64,000 nt of DNA, from NCBI GenBank assembly GCA_000004985.1, contig GG738846.1; one strand, written 5' to 3'. Positions 37,247 through 50,953 of the stretch are shown in pieces; the first letter of the stretch is position 1; the number at the start of each line of letters is the position of its first letter. This DNA comes from Naegleria gruberi. Lineage: Eukaryota. A program made the position numbers and the translations under genes. The notes under the pieces are model-generated. The model made no database searches. It was not told the origin of the DNA and worked only from the letters and a program-made list of their open reading frames with translations.

Positions 37247-40174
37247 CTATGCTTCTTCAAAAGTGATTTCATCATTGTAAGGAGAAACCGAAGAAACTCT
37301 AACAAATACTAAATTTCCAGCAGCCCTATTTTGAGCTGACTTGACACTAGTCTTAAAAGCTGATTCCATAAGATAAAGCTCTGATGTGTAAGGAAGTTCA
37401 TTAGGATCCAAACTTGTAACAGAGTTCTTTCTAGTTTCTAATACAAGTGCCTTGTACTTATTAAGATTTGATGATTTGGTAAGATTTTGTTCAAAATACT
37501 TCAATAACCAAAAACGTTCACTCTTCTTTTGCAAACTATTGATAGCTCTAGTTGTTGGTTCAATAGCAAAGATCATTTCTTGAATTTCATCCCAGGTAAA
37601 TGGTTGTTTTTCTCCTCTCATTTGAGCCTTGAGTTGATAGTGAACCATCAAGTCGCTGTATCTTCTGATTGGAGATGTGACTTGAACATAGTTTGCACTA
37701 CCAATGCCTTGGTGGAATTTTGGTGATTGATTAATGCAAACACCTGCAATAGGGTAGAATTTCTTGTTAGAATCAACAACCAATTCACAAACATCCTTTT
37801 CAGGCAAGTTAGTACGAAGAGAAAGAATCTTTTGCATTTCTTCATTGGAAAGAAGAGGTGGAAGATCAGTAGTAACAGTTCTAGTACCTCTATAAGGAAC
37901 AGCAATATCATGTTGATGAGCATAGAATCCTCCAATTTCGTTGGCAGCAATCATAAATTCTTGTACCAATCTTCTAGAAGGACTCACAAGTTCCTCAAAT
38001 GTTGTGGAAACTTCAATATTCTTCTCAGAGTCGCTGACATAAACCTTTGGTCTTGGTGTCAAAGTTGGTGGAGTTGCACCTTTACCCATTCTAAAGGCAA
38101 AACGTAAATTAGCAACTTTAACCATATGTTCGAAAGCTTGTTGAACTTCAGGTTCAGCTTGGACAGTATTTTCAATAATGTTGTCAGCCATAGAGTAATC
38201 TACCTTCTTGACCTTTCCGAGTATTGCTGGAAAGACATCCCATTCAGATAGAGAACCATCACTATTAATCTTTGAAGAGAAGGTTAATGAAAAGTTTTCC
38301 TTCAAATCAGAAAGACTGAGAATGTTTGCACTCAGATCAGCAGCAATCATACTGAACTTAATGTCAGGCAGGTAAACACTGGATACTCTTTTTTGAGCTT
38401 CCTTATCGATGCTTGAGCCTTGATCAATGTATCTGGTAACATCAGCAATGTGAACATATATGTAGTATTCACCATTCTTAACTTCAATACTGACTCCATC
38501 ATCAACTTCTGTAGTCTTTGGATATTCGTCAATTGTAAATACAGTCAGGTGTCTCAAGTCTTTTCTGATTTTGCTGTCTGGATCTGATGCAGACATTATA
38601 GAATTCCTAGCTTCTTCCACAATTTGCTTAAATTTGTCCTCTTCTTTCATGTGGCACATATCTTCTTCCATTGACCTCAATAAGTGAATGTTTTGTGTTT
38701 TGAATAGTTTCAAATCTCTTGCAACTCTGAATGCCTGCAAGTGATCATCAGCACCTAGAGGTTTGAAAAATGCTTCATAAATCCTCTTTCTACTTTCAAG
38801 ATTAGAGTACATTCCCAGCGCATATTGTCTGAATACTCCTAGCCTCTCTGCGTCCTTTTGTTCATCGAGTTCTAAGTTATCCCTAGTTATTTCAATATCA
38901 GGTCGCATAGCTTTAATCTCCTTCATTATATTATTTCTTAATTGTTTGTAAAATAGACTCCTCTCTTCATTTGTTACCAAGAGACGATTCGTTATCTTGA
39001 GTAAGAAGAGCTTATCTAGAAGAATGTTTTCCTTTTCCTCGGATCCCATATGTTTCAATTCTTCGACTTCTCTAAGGGATCTGCATTCAAAATTGAGATT
39101 GGATGTATGTTTAAAGTAGAGTGGGTTTTTGTACAAGAATCTGTAGGCAGAGTAGAGGGCAGTAGCATCTGTAGATTGGAATAGGTGTTCTGAAGCTTCC
39201 TTGATAGTTATTTTGACATTCTTTCGTTGTAAAAATGATCTCCACATCTTGTCACAATCCTCAGTTGTAAGGTTTGAAATCATATTGGCACTATCAATTT
39301 GCATTTGCTTGGCATCATCAATGTTGAATCTTTTGTCATTACTCTCATTCGAAAATTGATAGGTTAATTGATTGGAATTTACAACCTTGTTCATACCATG
39401 TATGTCAACGATCAACCACTTGTTGTTATTTTCATCCTGTGACTCTGGTCCTGTTATTATTGCCAACTTTCTTTCAAACTCGTCATCATATTCAACTATA
39501 ATACTTTGAGGTGTTCGTGATTCTTGACTAAAAGCTCGAGACAAGTTGATAGAACCAGGTGAAGCAAATGTATTCAAGTTAGTGTGGAATGCTCTCTTCC
39601 CATATTGATTAGCTTCTCTTTGTATCTTATTCTTGTTAGGTGAAGGTGGTCCTGATGTGGTAGTTGTGGTTGTTGATTTTCTATAGATACGAGAGCCAAT
39701 ATATTGGATCTTTTTCTTAGTTTCATTTGGTGTGGAAGCGGAGGTGGATGGTATTATTTCATCTGTTACTGATGAAGAAGTGGCAGCAATATATTCTGGA
39801 TATGGTTCTTGTTGGAGGAAGAAAGCTTCTTCATCAAAGTATGGATTAACAGCATTAGGTTGATGATGATATTGTTGATAACGTTGTTTAGAATGACCTT
39901 GGTAGTATGTAATGTTGTGATAGTGATAATTCTGAGCAAATGCATCACTATTTGATGTGGTAGTTGTTGTGGTCTTTTTGATGATGGAAGGATTTAAATG
40001 ATGATTATAGGAAGTTGTTGGTTGGGTTGTGTTGGAGGAAGATCCTCCAAAGTTTTCACTGTAGAATTTGTTAACCACAGGTGGAGCATTTGGGAGAGCA
40101 TTTACATTGTTGAGGATGGATATGGATTGGGAGAGACCTCCTGTATACTTCTTGAATGAGGTGTTCTTTGACAT
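37247..40174 (-). CDS. RNB-domain (RNase II/R family) 3'-5' exoribonuclease, Dis3L2/Dss1-like
   Basis: RNB motifs are present (FTIDEYPKTTEVDDGVSIE, YIYVHIADVTRYI, YVQVTSPIRRYSDLMVHYQL). The N-terminus is T-rich and low-complexity. Confidence 0.78.
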   Translation of the reverse strand: MSKNTSFKKYTGGLSQSISILNNVNALPNAPPVVNKFYSENFGGSSSNTTQPTTSYNHHLNPSIIKKTTTTTTSNSDAFAQNYHYHNITYYQGHSKQRYQQYHHQPNAVNPYFDEEAFFLQQEPYPEYIAATSSSVTDEIIPSTSASTPNETKKKIQYIGSRIYRKSTTTTTTSGPPSPNKNKIQREANQYGKRAFHTNLNTFASPGSINLSRAFSQESRTPQSIIVEYDDEFERKLAIITGPESQDENNNKWLIVDIHGMNKVVNSNQLTYQFSNESNDKRFNIDDAKQMQIDSANMISNLTTEDCDKMWRSFLQRKNVKITIKEASEHLFQSTDATALYSAYRFLYKNPLYFKHTSNLNFECRSLREVEELKHMGSEEKENILLDKLFLLKITNRLLVTNEERSLFYKQLRNNIMKEIKAMRPDIEITRDNLELDEQKDAERLGVFRQYALGMYSNLESRKRIYEAFFKPLGADDHLQAFRVARDLKLFKTQNIHLLRSMEEDMCHMKEEDKFKQIVEEARNSIMSASDPDSKIRKDLRHLTVFTIDEYPKTTEVDDGVSIEVKNGEYYIYVHIADVTRYIDQGSSIDKEAQKRVSSVYLPDIKFSMIAADLSANILSLSDLKENFSLTFSSKINSDGSLSEWDVFPAILGKVKKVDYSMADNIIENTVQAEPEVQQAFEHMVKVANLRFAFRMGKGATPPTLTPRPKVYVSDSEKNIEVSTTFEELVSPSRRLVQEFMIAANEIGGFYAHQHDIAVPYRGTRTVTTDLPPLLSNEEMQKILSLRTNLPEKDVCELVVDSNKKFYPIAGVCINQSPKFHQGIGSANYVQVTSPIRRYSDLMVHYQLKAQMRGEKQPFTWDEIQEMIFAIEPTTRAINSLQKKSERFWLLKYFEQNLTKSSNLNKYKALVLETRKNSVTSLDPNELPYTSELYLMESAFKTSVKSAQNRAAGNLVFVRVSSVSPYNDEITFEEA

Positions 40175-45066: not shown

Positions 45067-45840
45067 ATGTCTCTTCCCCTTCTGAAAATTAAGAAATGGT
45101 CAATTCCGATAAATGAAACATCGAAACTAAGTGCCAAGCAACAAATTATGATTATTCAATATGCTGGTCAATTGTTTGAGTTGACTAGTATGGTGGAAGG
45201 ATTGATAACTCCATTGATGAGAGGGGAGGATTTAACAATTGCTAATTCAGATTATTTATTTGATTTGGAAAGAAATGATCTTTATTTGAGTACTATTTGT
45301 AGAGCTAGAGAAGGGAAAATTTTACAATTTCTAGTAAAGCCAGGAGATTGGGTCGAGAGAAATCAAGCTGGAATAATTATTGAGAGAGAAAAAAAAGTTG
45401 AGGAGTGGAAATTCCTTAAACCAGGTAGAATTCTCGAAGTTAATTTAAAAGTTGGAGATCACGTTGGCTTTTTTTATTCACCATTCACAATGATGGAGAA
45501 GGAAAGTGGCGAAACTAATCTTCCATTAGCTGATTGCAAATTTATTGGAATTAGCAATGAAAATCCAAAATATAGACCTGATATGGCTCCTCAAATGTAT
45601 TATTTTGAGAATCACAATTGTGGAATTAGTACAAAAGAATACTATACTGAAATATATGATATAGAGTGGCTTGTTAAAGAAGGTCAATTGGTAAAGAAGG
45701 GAGATTTACTTTGTTCATATCAAGTACCCAAATTAAGATTGGAATTTATGAGTCCATATGATGGGAAAATTGTGTGGCTCAGAAGAGATGATTCCATGTT
45801 CATTGGGGATTCATTTTTTGAAATAATAGTTCACCAATAA
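45067..45840 (+). CDS. hypothetical protein with two lipoyl/biotinyl-attachment-like (hybrid beta-barrel) segments lacking the canonical modified Lys
   Basis: VKPGDWVERNQAGIIIEREKK and VKEGQLVKKGDLLCSYQVPKLRLEFMSPYDGKIVWL resemble the VxxGDxV...SPxDGxI pattern. The call is not secure. Confidence 0.45.
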   Translation: MSLPLLKIKKWSIPINETSKLSAKQQIMIIQYAGQLFELTSMVEGLITPLMRGEDLTIANSDYLFDLERNDLYLSTICRAREGKILQFLVKPGDWVERNQAGIIIEREKKVEEWKFLKPGRILEVNLKVGDHVGFFYSPFTMMEKESGETNLPLADCKFIGISNENPKYRPDMAPQMYYFENHNCGISTKEYYTEIYDIEWLVKEGQLVKKGDLLCSYQVPKLRLEFMSPYDGKIVWLRRDDSMFIGDSFFEIIVHQ

Positions 45841-45853
45841 AGTTTCCACCAAA

Positions 45854-48126
45854 TTATTCTACTAAAATGGTTGAAGAAACAACCTTATTATCAAGTAATT
45901 TTCTAACTTCCATATTGAATGGACGTTTTGCAAGAATATTCTGAACAGTTTGTCTCAAATTTGTAAAAATCTTCCACTCATTACAAGCATTATCATCTGG
46001 TAATTGAATGACAACATCAAAGACTGGATCGGCTTTCAATTGAAGTCTCATCTTTTCACCATCTTTTGTTGCGTTTCTATCACCTAATCAATTATTGAAA
46101 ATTAAAATTACTGCAATATTGTAAACTTACTCATAATTACACTTTCAACACCACCCAACAAGTCGCATAAAATTGGATTTTTGAGAATGGATTTCATATC
46201 ACCATGCGCACTACCACAAAGAACAACCCCTCTCTGTGCGATGGTTCTTGCAGTACTGACCTCATCCCTGGTTCCAATCTCATCAATTACAATGACTTCT
46301 GGTGTGTGATTCTGAACGGCTTGAATCATTACTTCTTGTTGTCTTCTAATGTCAGCTACTTGCATTCTTCTGGCCTTACCAATCGCCACATGAGGTACAT
46401 CTCCAAAACCACCAATCTCACAAGAGGTGTCAACTACGACAACTCTTCTTGATTCAGAAAGCGTCTTGGCAAAATCTCTGATAAAAGTCGTCTTTCCTGA
46501 ACCTGGTTTACCCAAAAGCAAAATGCTCTTCCCTTGTTCAATCAAGTCTGAGAATACTTTCGATCTTCCCATTACTGCCCTGCCTACTCTCAATGTGAGT
46601 CCAATAATTTTTTCACTTCTATTGAGCATGGCACTAATTCTATGTAAGGCGCCATCGATTCCAGCTCTGTTATCAGTTCCAAAGGATAGCTTACTGACAA
46701 CTTCATCAATGTCCTCCTGTTTAACAATAAATGAGTTATCAATGTGCGATTCCTTCTTGTGGTAGTAGAATAATTCATAGGGTCTTCCCTTATCCATGGC
46801 CACTTCAATTAAATTCATCACGTCCTCACCTGAAATTGTTGACAACTGTTCTTGAATCTTCTTTGGGAATAACTCCAAGAAACTGTAAATTTGATTAATA
46901 ATTGTGACATTGTAATCAGTTTGATGAGTTAGAATTGCAACATCTTGTTGAGCAGACTCCTGACCTGCTGTTGGAGATTTCTTAATTTGGAGTATGTCCA
47001 AAATGAAATTCCACAATTTTTTCACTTCAGAATCCACTTGAGCAAACACTTGTTTTGCCTCATCTTCCAAAGGAGGTGTCATGGCCTTACACAGCTGTAC
47101 CAGAGTTCTGACATCTCCAGAAGCATAATTCAACATTTCTTCAGTAAAAACTTTCTTTGCCCAACTATTTCTCATATGAAGATTCTTGCCCAAATCTTTG
47201 AAAGCATTTCCTGGAACGTTATAGAGCATACACAAATCATTGAATGAAATATTTCTTTGGGTTTGATGAAGAATTTGATAGAGAATTGAAGTGTCCACAA
47301 TTGAGGAAACACAAATATCAAAGTCCTTATATAGTCCACATAAATCATTCTCACAATTGTGAATAATTTTCAAAATGGTTTCGTCTTCAAGTATTTTCTT
47401 TACAGTTTCGGTGATGGTTGGATTTTTGAGTTTCATATCGAACAAGTATTGAGTGTTGTGAGCTGAAATCTGTACAAGAGTCAACACTCCATTAATTCCC
47501 AAATTAACACCTTCGCAATCGAATCCTACTAATTTGGTATTGAACTTGGACATGTCAGAGAGGAATTGCTGGGCAAGAGCTGGAGTATTGACAAGCACAA
47601 TATCGCTCTTATTGGCATTACCTACACTCACAACAGTGGATGAGCTGCCAGCTGTCAACTGAGAACTATTAGCAACAGAAGTAGAAGCAGAAGTAGGTCC
47701 ATTTGCTTTTTTAATTTGCTCTACCATGGAATTCAATTTAGTTCTAACATTTTTAATTGACCTTTTGCCTGTCTTATCAAAGGCAGCTGCCAATTGCAAG
47801 GTTGTTAATTGTTCCAACAAGTCGTAATCACTAGAAAATTGTTGATGCAAATTGGCCAAGACAAGGTTCGGAACTTGAACCATAAGAGTCATGGTATCTT
47901 GCTCTTCATTATAAGAGAACCATCTCTCACTCTCTCCACTAAATAATACATCATAGATGTATTGCCAATCGGGAAGGTCTTCGAATTGTGTCTGATGAGG
48001 TTCGAATGAGTAGCCATTCTCTAAATACTTTTCAAATATTTCACTCTTGGTTGGTTTTCTATTGCTGAGCGCACTGATGGAGCAGACACGGATGAGTTTA
48101 TCAAGATAATTGGTTGTGGTGGCCAT
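45854..48126 (-). CDS. fusion protein: N-terminal DEDDy 3'-5' exonuclease domain plus C-terminal Ycf45/SpoIIIAA-like P-loop ATPase. Two exons: 48126..46131 and 46083..45854 (intron 46084-46130, GTAAGT...GATTAG, phase 1)
   Basis: Exo motif I is LVGFDCEGV, motif II is KIIHNCENDLCGL, and motif III is NYASGDVRTL. The ATPase region has LLGKPGSGKTTFIRD, VVVVDTSCEIGGFGDVPHVAIGKARRMQV, IVIDEIGTRDEVSTARTIAQRGVVLCGSAHG and a preceding GIDGALHRIS. Splicing joins ...GGVESVIMS to DRNATKDGEKMRLQ... in frame. Confidence 0.7.
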
Positions 48127-49450: not shown

Positions 49451-50953
49451 ATGTCAGTCTTTTACAAGTTTAAATCCGCAAAGGATTATGATACAATCAC
49501 AGTGGAAGGCAATGGCATTTCCTTGTCCAAATTAAAACAGAGTATTGCTACACAAAAGAAGTTACCTAAAACAATGGACTATGATCTTGTCTTGGAAAAC
49601 GCTCAAACTGGAGAAGTGTACAAGTATGATCAAGATGTTGTACCAAAGAATACTTCAGTGCTGGTTAAAAGAGTACCTGTAACAAGAAGTGTAGGATCTG
49701 CTAATAATAATCCTTCTGCAAATTCCCAGCCTGCCATCATTCCTCCATCTAATAATAATTCATCATCACTCCTCTCTAATAATAATAATAATACAAATCA
49801 AAAGAGTTTAACAGGAAGCCTATTTTCAAGAAATACATCGTCAAATGATAGCGGAGCATCTTTTGCTTCTGTTTTTTCTGGATCAAGTGGGAACGAGACA
49901 ACAGAGGAAACAATAGGAGAAGAACAAAAATTGAGAGATTTAGCAAATAATACAGGAAAATGGATTCCGGATACACCAAGTCAACAACAGCATCATTCCC
50001 AATCAAAACGTATTCCTCCACCAAATTATATTTGTCACAGATGTAAAAAGACAGGACATTACATTCAACATTGTCCAACTAATGGCGATGCTAGATATAA
50101 TATTAAAACTATTCGTATTCCAGTTGGTATTCCAAAGAGTTTTTTACAACCTATTGAAGCACCAAAAGCCGATTCAAATAATACAGTTGTAATGCCTGGA
50201 GGAAATTTAGCTGTTTTGGCACCAAATGAAAAGGAATTTTCAAAGATTTTAGGTAAGAAGAATGTGGAAATTAGGGAAGTTCCAAAAGAATTCCAATGCT
50301 CAATTTGTTCAAAGATCTTAACTGATGCTGTCACCATTCCATGCTGTAAAACAAATTATTGCAATAATTGCATTACTCATGCATTAATACATGATACTCA
50401 TTTAACTTGTCCAAATTGTAAATCTCCTGATCAATCTATTGATGCTCTAGCTCCAAATTATGATCTAAGAAGGAGAGTTGACAATTATAAAGCAAATTTG
50501 GATTCAGGTGCTCCTCCTTCACTTCTCAGTACTGCAACAAGTCAATTTAATTCATCATCTAGTTACCATAATTCTAATAACAACTCTAATAATTATAATA
50601 ACAGTAATAGTGCTAAATCATCTCCACCTAGTCAAAATTACAATAGCAATAGTGGTGGAAGTAACAATCACCGATATGATAGTCATGACAATAAACAAGA
50701 CAATCGATCTGGATCTTACAATAATAGAAGTAATAATAGTTATAGAAGATCACCTCCAAGAAGAGATTCCTATGATAACAGAAGAGGAGATAATTATGAT
50801 AATAGAAGAGGAGGCTACAATGACAGAGGCAATGATAGAGGAGGTAGAAATGATCATTCGTACGATAAGTATGATAAGAGAGGTGAAAAGAGAGGAGGTT
50901 ATGATAATCGTCGTTCAGATTATGAAAGTGATAGAAAAAAGTATAAGGATTAA
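49451..50953 (+). CDS. RBBP6: RBBP6/Mpe1-type E3 ubiquitin ligase (DWNN domain, CCHC zinc knuckle, RING/U-box-like, RD/RS-like tail)
   Basis: The N-terminal MSVFYKFKSAKDYDTITVEGNGISLSKLKQ...VLVKRVP is a DWNN domain. CHRCKKTGHYIQHCP is a CCHC knuckle. CSICSKILTDAVTIPCCKTNYCNNCITHALIHDTHLTCPNCKSP is a RING-like finger. The C-terminus has R/D/N/Y-rich repeats. Confidence 0.9.
   Translation: MSVFYKFKSAKDYDTITVEGNGISLSKLKQSIATQKKLPKTMDYDLVLENAQTGEVYKYDQDVVPKNTSVLVKRVPVTRSVGSANNNPSANSQPAIIPPSNNNSSSLLSNNNNNTNQKSLTGSLFSRNTSSNDSGASFASVFSGSSGNETTEETIGEEQKLRDLANNTGKWIPDTPSQQQHHSQSKRIPPPNYICHRCKKTGHYIQHCPTNGDARYNIKTIRIPVGIPKSFLQPIEAPKADSNNTVVMPGGNLAVLAPNEKEFSKILGKKNVEIREVPKEFQCSICSKILTDAVTIPCCKTNYCNNCITHALIHDTHLTCPNCKSPDQSIDALAPNYDLRRRVDNYKANLDSGAPPSLLSTATSQFNSSSSYHNSNNNSNNYNNSNSAKSSPPSQNYNSNSGGSNNHRYDSHDNKQDNRSGSYNNRSNNSYRRSPPRRDSYDNRRGDNYDNRRGGYNDRGNDRGGRNDHSYDKYDKRGEKRGGYDNRRSDYESDRKKYKD

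What the first reader, a model, noticed from the sequence alone, without database searches (positions are those of the whole stretch)
45854..48126. Single gene fusing a DEDDy 3'-5' exonuclease domain to a Ycf45/SpoIIIAA-type ATPase
The N-terminal half carries all three exonuclease motifs (D-x-E, H-x4-D, Y-x3-D) of the WRN-exo/RNase D/Mut-7 type. The C-terminal half is a P-loop ATPase of the bacterial SpoIIIAA / plastid Ycf45 type (GKPGSGKTT...VVVDTS.EIGG...IDEIGT...AHG). I do not recall this combination as a described architecture. The fusion is supported by one continuous 1.99-kb ORF plus a cleanly spliced 3' exon. Such a protein could couple ATP-driven remodelling to nucleic-acid trimming, in an organellar or RNA-surveillance role.
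Basis: partly seen in the sequence, partly recalled or inferred. Interest (0 to 1): 0.55.

Follow-up and report, generated by a model that had tools for sequence, protein, structure and literature searches.

The report
Exonuclease fused to ring-type ATPase
This Naegleria gruberi gene really does join an RNase D/Egalitarian-type 3'-5' exonuclease to a bacterial-type (Ycf45/PilT-like) ATPase in one protein, and the same uncharacterised fusion turns up in diatoms, Rhodelphis, choanoflagellates and a sea lily, so it is an overlooked, widespread eukaryotic family rather than a one-off.

Summary
On the minus strand, a 1,996-nt exon (48126-46131), a 47-nt GT..AG intron (46130-46084) and a 3' exon (46083-45854) encode 741 aa. 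Pfam finds a DEDDy exonuclease (PF01612, E=8e-29) and a SpoIIIAA/Ycf45-type ATPase (PF19568, E=9e-13).

The window is Naegleria gruberi. GenBank holds only a 282-aa partial, ATPase-only model of this gene.

The fusion is conserved:
- N. lovaniensis has a collinear 778-aa orthologue with its intron at the same codon.
- About 44 of the best 150 cluster representatives share the exonuclease-then-ATPase order.
- These include transcript-derived proteins from a diatom, Rhodelphis and three choanoflagellates, plus a crinoid RefSeq protein.

The catalytic DEDDy residues and the Walker A, Asp-box, Walker B and His-box motifs are conserved.

By sequence, the nearest solved relative of the exonuclease is Drosophila Egalitarian. 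The ATPase folds like PilT/FlaI/PINA ring ATPases. It lacks the PTPase-like and R3H tail of bacterial Ycf45. The N-terminus is a winged helix, and longer relatives carry LOTUS domains there.

Most likely function (inferred): an ATP-driven RNA 3'-end trimming or degradation machine. I found no publication describing it. I class it as a new variant of a known kind, of moderate interest.

The parts
45854..48126 (-). Whole gene: start codon at 48126, stop codon at 45854-45856. Two exons, 741 aa.
   Evidence: Collinear with the N. lovaniensis 778-aa orthologue over 100% of its length.
46131..48126 (-). Exon 1, 1,996 nt. It encodes aa 1-665 plus the first base of codon 666. It holds the winged helix, the exonuclease and most of the ATPase in one open frame.
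   Evidence: P~2e-19 for a stop-free run of this length.
46084..46130 (-). 47-nt intron, GTAAG...TAG, phase 1 in the Ser666 codon.
   Evidence: N. lovaniensis has an 84-nt intron at exactly the same codon. Splicing restores residues conserved from bacteria to eukaryotes.
45854..46083 (-). Exon 2, including the stop codon. It encodes the C-terminal beta-rich subdomain of the ATPase module.
   Evidence: pLDDT is 82-98 here.
47872..48126 (-). N-terminal winged-helix domain, aa 1-85.
47701..47829 (-). Three-helix extension after the winged helix, aa 100-142. It is followed by a disordered Ser/Thr-rich linker, aa 143-172 (47611-47700).
47071..47604 (-). DEDDy 3'-5' exonuclease domain, aa 175-352. 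Exo I is D203/E205 (47512-47520), Exo II is H256..D261 (47344-47361) and Exo III is Y334..D338 (47113-47127).
46981..47067 (-). Long helix following the exonuclease, aa 354-382. It may correspond to the helical region adjacent to Egalitarian's exonuclease domain. A disordered linker follows, aa 384-396 (46939-46977).
   Evidence: for secondary structure and pLDDT. The analogy to Egl's XAD/EHD comes from PMC13186709 and is inferred only.
45857..46938 (-). Ycf45-type, PilT-like ATPase module, aa 397-741. It has an N-terminal alpha/beta subdomain (aa 397-520), a P-loop core and a C-terminal subdomain. Motifs: Walker A 539-547 (46486-46512), Asp box 562-573 (46408-46443), R586/R587 (46366-46371), Walker B 611-618 (46273-46296) and His box 638-642 (46201-46215).

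Best explanation
This is one real N. gruberi gene. It belongs to a conserved, so far undescribed eukaryotic protein family.

Architecture (shown): [winged helix, or LOTUS domains in longer relatives] - [RNase D/Egalitarian-type DEDDy 3'-5' exonuclease] - [ATPase module of the bacterial Ycf45/R3H-ATPase family]. The ATPase is a PilT/VirB11/FlaI-class P-loop ATPase. It has lost the bacterial PTPase-like and R3H tail.

Proposed mechanism (inferred): the ATPase assembles into a ring, as its structural relatives do. It uses ATP hydrolysis to grip, unwind or translocate a nucleic acid, most probably RNA or an RNP. The 3' end is delivered to the tethered exonuclease, which trims or degrades it. The N-terminal winged-helix/LOTUS module selects the substrate or a partner. 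It thereby takes over the nucleic-acid-binding role that the R3H domain plays in the bacterial proteins.

What is shown: the gene model, both domains, intact catalytic motifs, conservation of the fusion, and the fold assignments. What is inferred: oligomeric state, substrate (RNA versus DNA), coupling between the two activities, and cellular location.
For: Gene model:
-.
- The intron position is shared with N. lovaniensis.

Domains:
- Pfam and NCBIfam hits.

Conservation of the fusion, always exonuclease N-terminal to ATPase and never with R3H:
-.
- Named members are the Striatella unipunctata MMETSP transcript, Rhodelphis marinus, Salpingoeca urceolata, Bicosta minor, Didymoeca costata (TransDecoder 'type:complete' ORFs) and Anneissia japonica XP_033106748.
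- One member lies in a clearly eukaryotic gene context.
- In an NJ tree of the ATPase module, 40 of 41 fusions form one clade containing no bacterial R3H-type sequence.

Catalytic competence:
- D203, E205, D261, Y334 and D338 are kept in 40-45 of 49 exonuclease domains.
- Walker A, Asp box, RR, Walker B and His box are invariant in A1 and invariant or nearly invariant (90% or more) in A2.

Folds:
- The AF2 model has pLDDT 86.4.

Lean towards RNA:
- Longer members carry OST-HTH/LOTUS or WH_Egal domains.
- The nearest exonuclease relatives are Egalitarian, plant Exo-KH proteins and RNase D.
- The bacterial parent family carries an R3H domain.
Against: - There is no transcript, protein or activity data for N. 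gruberi.
- Ring assembly is assumed from structural relatives only.
- No solved structure of any Ycf45/SpoIIIAA-family member was found by sequence search of the PDB.
- Egalitarian, the closest solved relative of the exonuclease domain, keeps all five DEDDy residues. Yet mutating them does not affect its RNA binding or its function in oogenesis (bioRxiv 10.1101/2025.08.03.668247). Motif conservation therefore does not prove that catalysis is the main job.
- The crinoid member has a degenerate Exo I motif.
- Bacterial homologues sit next to tmk, holB and priA, which leans towards DNA rather than RNA.
- PilT-class ATPases are best known as protein or pilus motors, not nucleic-acid motors.
Confidence: 0.5

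Rival explanations
1. Non-degradative RNA adaptor or remodeller. As in Egalitarian, the exonuclease-like domain serves mainly as an RNA-binding surface. The ATPase remodels or releases RNPs, or moves them, without trimming.
Against: All five catalytic residues are kept in N. gruberi and in about 85-90% of sampled family members across very distant lineages. That is hard to explain without selection on catalysis.
Confidence: 0.2
2. DNA-end processing or repair machine. A ring ATPase plus a 3'-5' exonuclease acts on DNA ends, forks or junctions. Analogues are archaeal PINA or HerA-NurA, and WRN (exonuclease plus helicase).
Against: The accessory domains in relatives are typical RNA-binding modules: LOTUS, WH_Egal, and KH in plant relatives of the exonuclease. 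The nearest exonuclease relatives act on RNA (Egl, RNase D). Gene neighbourhood in bacteria is weak evidence for a eukaryotic fusion protein.
Confidence: 0.15
3. Organellar (mitochondrial) nucleic-acid maintenance factor, inherited with the Ycf45 lineage from a cyanobacterial or organellar source.
For: Ycf45 is a plastid and cyanobacterial gene. Maruyama et al. 2009 listed the N. gruberi YCF45 homologue (JGI 2396) among genes of cyanobacterial ancestry (PMC3087521).
Against: Naegleria has no plastid. Residues 2-22 are a helix of a confidently folded winged-helix domain, not a presequence. The N. lovaniensis N-terminus has acidic residues at positions 4, 9 and 21. Family members carry N-terminal LOTUS domains, which are best known from cytoplasmic RNA-granule proteins such as Oskar and TDRD5/7. 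The best bacterial hits are Chloroflexota and Armatimonadota as much as cyanobacteria. No targeting predictor could be run.
Confidence: 0.07
4. Annotation or assembly artefact: two adjacent genes that only appear fused because no stop codon happens to lie between them.
For: GenBank annotates only a 282-aa partial ATPase model here (EFC50045.1). No N. gruberi transcript data were available.
Against: The linker differs in length and sequence in each lineage, yet the frame is kept in N. lovaniensis, L002, L001 and more than 40 other clusters. Several of these are assembled transcripts with complete ORFs. L001 has UTR-like flanks around a single 758-aa ORF.
Confidence: 0.03

Closest known systems
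Bacterial, cyanobacterial and plastid Ycf45 / 'R3H domain-containing AAA ATPase' (Synechocystis slr0692; often auto-named SpoIIIAA)
   Same: The ATPase module (aa ~410-741) is collinear with it and 44-52% identical, at E~1e-80. It has the same N-terminal alpha/beta subdomain and the same Walker A, Asp-box, RR, Walker B and His-box motifs.
   Different: The C-terminal PTPase-like (PF25516) and R3H (PF01424) half is absent. Instead a winged helix and a DEDDy exonuclease are added at the N-terminus. The eukaryotic fusions form their own clade in an exploratory tree. The function of Ycf45 itself is unknown.
Drosophila Egalitarian (LOTUS-like EDs + ExoHD + XAD; dynein mRNA adaptor)
   Different: Egl has no ATPase. 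It has BicD- and LC8-binding regions, which were not looked for here. The N. gruberi winged helix cannot be told apart from generic winged helices.
E. coli RNase D / eukaryotic RRP6 / WRN exonuclease (DEDDy, PF01612)
   Different: No HRDC domain. Fused to a PilT-class ATPase rather than acting alone (RNase D), with the exosome (RRP6), or fused to a RecQ helicase (WRN).
Archaeal PINA (PIN + PilT-like ATPase + KH hexamer)
   Different: The nuclease fold differs (PIN versus DEDDy). PINA has a KH tail and acts on DNA junctions, and sequence identity is only ~11%. This is an analogy of design, not membership.
Bacillus SpoIIIAA and PilT/GspE/VirB11/FlaI secretion ATPases
   Same: P-loop core fold and the four-motif signature.
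   Different: The TIGR02858 score is 74.5 against a cut-off of 281.3. PF00437 T2SSE scores 16.4 bits against 24.9. There is no membrane machinery context, and this is a eukaryotic protein.

Membership tests
DEDDy 3'-5' exonuclease (Pfam PF01612, RNase D/Egl-like) | Profile match above the curated threshold | tested here: met
   101.1 bits against a cut-off of 23.6, E=7.9e-29, aa 179-353.
DEDDy 3'-5' exonuclease (Pfam PF01612, RNase D/Egl-like) | Exo I D-x-E, Exo II D and Exo III Y-x3-D catalytic residues | tested here: met
   D203/E205, D261 and Y334/D338 are present. They are kept in 40-45 of 49 family exonuclease domains.
DEDDy 3'-5' exonuclease (Pfam PF01612, RNase D/Egl-like) | DnaQ/RNase H-like fold | tested here: met
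DEDDy 3'-5' exonuclease (Pfam PF01612, RNase D/Egl-like) | Metal-dependent 3'-5' exonuclease activity | not testable with these tools
   Needs recombinant protein. Egl shows that intact motifs do not guarantee that catalysis is functionally required.
Ycf45 / bacterial R3H-ATPase | Collinear ATPase module with Walker A, Asp box, Walker B and His box | tested here: met
   44-52% identity, E~1e-80, motifs conserved. PF19568 scores 48.4 bits against a cut-off of 27.
Ycf45 / bacterial R3H-ATPase | C-terminal PTPase-like (PF25516) and R3H (PF01424) domains | tested here: not met
   The protein ends ~200 aa earlier than P0003 and P0055. There are no PF25516 or PF01424 hits in it or in any of ~44 fusion relatives. 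It is therefore a homologue of the ATPase module, not a canonical Ycf45.
SpoIIIAA proper (TIGR02858 equivalog) | Score above the equivalog cut-off | tested here: not met
   74.5 bits against 281.3.
PilT/VirB11/GspE/FlaI secretion-ATPase superfamily | Two-subdomain fold (N-terminal alpha/beta plus RecA-like core) | tested here: met
PilT/VirB11/GspE/FlaI secretion-ATPase superfamily | Sequence-family membership (PF00437 T2SSE) | tested here: not met
   16.4 bits against a cut-off of 24.9, E=0.0036.
PilT/VirB11/GspE/FlaI secretion-ATPase superfamily | Hexameric ring assembly | not testable with these tools
   Only a monomer model was made. Needs SEC-MALS or cryo-EM.
Egalitarian family | Egl-type exonuclease homology domain | tested here: met
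   phmmer E=6.5e-28 to 9uju_C, compared with 7e-07 for EXD2 and 1e-05 for EXOSC10. It nests with the fusion-family exonuclease domains in an NJ tree.
Egalitarian family | LOTUS-like Egl domains (PF23713) upstream of the exonuclease | tested here: inconclusive
Egalitarian family | BicD-binding N-terminus and LC8 site; no ATPase | not tested
   Not examined. The presence of the ATPase module is a clear architectural difference.

The most novel reading that the evidence does not exclude
The fusion may be an ancient eukaryotic machine, possibly dating to the last eukaryotic common ancestor. It would combine a LOTUS or winged-helix substrate selector, an RNase D-like exonuclease and a PilT-class ring ATPase acquired from bacteria. 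It would then be a eukaryotic example of this ATPase class driving RNA 3'-end processing. Animal Egalitarian (a dynein mRNA adaptor) and plant Exo-KH proteins would be descendants of the same exonuclease lineage that lost or never gained the motor. That would give Egalitarian's puzzlingly conserved but dispensable active site an evolutionary explanation.
Probability: 0.25. Interest if true: 0.75.

Novelty: new variant of a known kind. Interest (0 to 1): 0.55.

Why it matters
Both modules are well known. Their combination is conserved across Discoba, stramenopiles, Rhodelphis, choanoflagellates and at least one animal, yet I could find no published description and no known function.

If the proposed coupling is right, it would add a new design to the short list of motor-plus-nuclease machines (exosome-Mtr4, WRN, HerA-NurA, PINA). 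It would also place a PilT-class ATPase in eukaryotic nucleic-acid metabolism.

It gives a handle on the function of the long-enigmatic Ycf45 family. It also bears on why Egalitarian keeps an intact DEDDy site.

Practically, the N. gruberi reference annotation is wrong here. It has a 282-aa partial model instead of a 741-aa two-exon gene.

Tried and rejected
N-terminal region by sequence. Pfam scans of aa 1-155 of three orthologues at E<=10 gave only noise. A 3-sequence HMM searched against all collected proteins gave nothing beyond the three orthologues. Only the structure model identified the winged helix.

Word-indexed homology searches. A search with aa 1-385 returned only 3 weak hits and missed even the N. 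lovaniensis orthologue, so it was uninformative. The profile search with the exonuclease alignment was also limited by the word index. It did recover plant Exo-KH and bacterial RNase D.

Look-ups that failed. The second N. gruberi copy (EFC47825.1, 90% identical over 302 aa) was not on record, so I could not check whether that locus is also a fusion. The afdb50 fold library was not available.

Literature. Searches were run for Ycf45, SpoIIIAA+R3H, OST-HTH+exonuclease+ATPase, Spore_III_AA, SpoIIIAA+exonuclease, slr0692, and Egalitarian+exonuclease+AAA/choanoflagellate. None describes the fusion. Maruyama 2009 mentions the N. gruberi YCF45 homologue but not the exonuclease.

Chimeric assembly of L001. 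GC content rises from ~0.35 to ~0.49 near nt 1000. I rejected a chimera because the shift lies inside the exonuclease domain, upstream of an intact in-frame Exo III motif, and not at the domain junction.

Crinoid protein as an Egl orthologue that retains the ATPase. Not supported. Its exonuclease domain is less Egl-like (E=5e-12) than the Naegleria one, and it is degenerate.

Trees. The NJ trees are exploratory. They have no support values and use query-biased sampling, so I use them only as suggestions.
Full report
**What is in the sequence**

The region lies in an AT-rich eukaryotic window with 30-38% GC. The minus strand carries a 672-aa ORF at 46108..48126. At 46130..46084 there is a 47-nt GTAAG...TAG intron. 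Removing it joins the frame to a second exon that runs to a stop codon at 45854-45856. The result is a 2,226-nt CDS and a 741-aa protein. Stop codons make up 6.3% of all six-frame codons in the window, so a 665-codon open run has P~2e-19.

**Whose genome, and how it is annotated**

The flanking ORFs are exact matches to Naegleria gruberi proteins EFC49850 and EFC49851. GenBank has only a 282-aa 'predicted protein, partial' (EFC50045.1) for this gene. That model equals aa 384-665 of mine, so it covers the ATPase core alone. A second copy, 90% identical, lies on another scaffold (EFC47825.1, also partial). I could not retrieve that locus.

**Domains**

- Pfam gives PF01612 (DEDDy 3'-5' exonuclease, aa 179-353, E=7.9e-29) and PF19568 (Spore_III_AA, aa 487-657, E=8.8e-13). 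Both are above their gathering scores.
- NCBIfam agrees on the families. The protein is far below the SpoIIIAA equivalog cut-off (74.5 against 281.3 bits).
- An AlphaFold2 model built on a 50-sequence alignment has mean pLDDT 86.4. Only two segments are disordered, aa 143-172 and 384-396.

**Is the gene model right, and is it one gene?**

- The N. lovaniensis orthologue (C9374_012917, 778 aa; 53% identity by BLASTP; 59% in alignment A1; 100% coverage) is collinear from Met1 to the C-terminus.
- Its locus has a single 84-nt intron in exactly the same codon (VIM|S), and a 2.1-kb first exon holding both domains.
- A metagenomic contig (L002) encodes a 742-aa orthologue. It has one 41-nt intron at a different site, inside the P-loop.
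- L001 is a 2.5-kb contig with a single 758-aa fusion ORF and short AT-rich flanks that look like UTRs.
- The linker between the domains differs in length and sequence in each lineage, yet the frame is always kept.
- N. gruberi transcript data were not available, so the single-transcript point rests on comparative evidence.

**How widespread is the fusion?**

A full HMMER scan of 1.84 billion cluster representatives gave 6,004 hits at E-value up to 0.001. Among the best 150, about 44 have an exonuclease domain N-terminal to the ATPase module. None has the bacterial C-terminal module.

Named members are:
- Striatella unipunctata (diatom, MMETSP transcript)
- Rhodelphis marinus
- the choanoflagellates Salpingoeca urceolata, Bicosta minor and Didymoeca costata (transcriptome ORFs marked complete)
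- the crinoid Anneissia japonica (RefSeq 'uncharacterized protein LOC117108733')

Another member sits on a 75-kb contig among plainly eukaryotic genes such as RhoGAP, MIF4G, gelsolin/villin-headpiece and F-box.

In an exploratory NJ tree of the ATPase module, 40 of 41 fusions fall in one clade of 67 tips with no bacterial R3H-type sequence. Some of the nearest ATPase relatives lack a detectable exonuclease, including a second N. lovaniensis paralogue.

Longer members add OST-HTH/LOTUS domains, a weak WH_Egal match, or NPM1-C at the N-terminus.

**What the two modules resemble**

Exonuclease:
- The best solved sequence relative is Drosophila Egalitarian, at E=6.5e-28. EXD2 gives 7e-07, EXOSC10 1e-05 and WRN 3e-04.
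- A profile of the family's exonuclease domains finds a plant Exo-KH protein (E=1.5e-39) and then bacterial RNase D (~1e-20).
- In an NJ tree, Egl and the plant protein nest among the fusion-family domains, apart from RNase D. This tree has no support values.
- The five DEDDy residues are kept in 40-45 of 49 family members.

ATPase:
- It is 44-52% identical to bacterial 'R3H domain-containing' ATPases, the Ycf45 type (Chloroflexota, Armatimonadota, cyanobacteria). The match covers aa ~410-741 only.
- Those bacterial proteins continue for ~200 aa with PF25516 (PTPase-like) and PF01424 (R3H). The eukaryotic fusions lack both.
- The Walker A, Asp-box, RR, Walker B and His-box residues are invariant in A1 and invariant or nearly invariant (90% or more) in A2.
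- No Ycf45 or SpoIIIAA family structure was found in the PDB by sequence.

**Mechanism**

The architecture is shown. The mechanism is inferred.

The most economical reading is a ring ATPase that grips or translocates nucleic acid and feeds 3' ends to six tethered DEDDy sites. The winged-helix/LOTUS module would replace the bacterial R3H domain as the substrate or partner selector.

RNA is favoured for three reasons:
- the accessory domains are LOTUS, WH_Egal, and KH in plant relatives of the exonuclease;
- the nearest exonuclease relatives are Egl and RNase D;
- the bacterial parent family carries an R3H domain.

Two facts keep the rivals alive:
- Egalitarian retains all five catalytic residues, yet mutating them affects neither RNA binding nor oogenesis. 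The domain could therefore be mainly a binding module.
- Bacterial homologues lie just upstream of tmk and darA, with holB or priA nearby, in Chloroflexota and Firmicutes genomes. Together with the PINA resemblance, this leans towards DNA.

An organellar role is unlikely. The N-terminus is a folded domain with no presequence character, Naegleria has no plastid, and relatives carry LOTUS domains, best known from cytoplasmic RNA-granule proteins. No targeting predictor was available.

**Comparison with what is known**

- The protein passes the tests for a DEDDy exonuclease.
- It is a homologue of the Ycf45 ATPase module but fails the full Ycf45 architecture test, because it has no PTPase-like or R3H domain.
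- It is not SpoIIIAA.
- It belongs to the PilT-class superfamily by fold but not by the PF00437 profile.
- It shares Egalitarian's exonuclease type and general N-terminal layout, but it adds an ATPase.
- In the held library the Ycf45 literature is almost entirely plastid gene lists. One 2009 paper noted the N. gruberi and Phytophthora homologues as genes of cyanobacterial ancestry without mentioning the exonuclease. Ycf45 (slr0692) is still listed as a 'hypothetical protein' in 2026.
- No paper found describes the fusion. The searchable library excludes most subscription-journal papers, so an earlier description cannot be ruled out.

**Verdict**

The fusion is not a Naegleria oddity but a widespread, unstudied eukaryotic family. 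I rate it a new variant of a known kind (a motor-plus-nuclease design built from known modules), with interest 0.55.

Noticed in passing
window 45854-48126 (GenBank EFC50045.1 / XP_002682789.1): The N. gruberi reference annotation holds only a 282-aa partial model, equal to aa 384-665 of the 741-aa protein. The exonuclease half, the winged helix and the 3' exon are unannotated.
   Followed up: yes
another N. gruberi scaffold (695,587 bp), protein EFC47825.1: A second copy, 90% identical over 302 aa of the ATPase part and again annotated only as a partial. It could be a paralogue or an allele. Whether it is also fused to an exonuclease could not be checked.
   Followed up: partly
window 45067-45840 (+) against 45854 (-): A biotin/lipoyl-domain gene (EFC49850, PF00364) converges on the fusion gene. 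Only 13 nt separate the two stop codons, so the 3' UTRs must overlap.
   Followed up: no
window 49451-50953 (+): A 500-aa DWNN + CCHC zinc-knuckle protein (Mpe1/RBBP6-like, EFC49851) with long Asn/Ser-rich low-complexity tracts.
   Followed up: no
window 37247-40174 (-): A 975-aa RNB-domain (RNase II/Dis3-like) protein with an RNase II winged helix lies ~6 kb from the fusion gene. This is probably coincidence in a eukaryote.
   Followed up: no
L003 5001-9238 and L004 5001-8987 (bacterial MAGs): In a Chloroflexota MAG and a Firmicutes MAG, the Ycf45-type R3H-ATPase gene sits directly upstream of tmk and a c-di-AMP receptor (PF06153) gene. holB/PSP1 or priA follow. This conserved neighbourhood hints at a link to replication or nucleotide metabolism for the bacterial family. 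A cyanobacterial locus (L005) lacks it.
   Followed up: partly
P0130 (N. lovaniensis C9374_012297) and P0125: Heterolobosean-type paralogues have the same ATPase module but no detectable exonuclease. Instead they have a ~330-350-aa N-terminal region, much of it low-complexity.
   Followed up: partly
P0279/P0204 (Anneissia japonica XP_033106748/9): An animal (crinoid) member of the fusion family has a degenerate Exo I motif (H-V-E in place of D-C-E). This suggests loss of catalysis in that lineage.
   Followed up: partly
L001 nt 1-2537: GC content rises from ~0.31-0.40 in the first 1 kb to ~0.49 afterwards within one ORF. The shift lies inside the exonuclease domain, so a chimera is unlikely, but it is unexplained.
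   Followed up: partly
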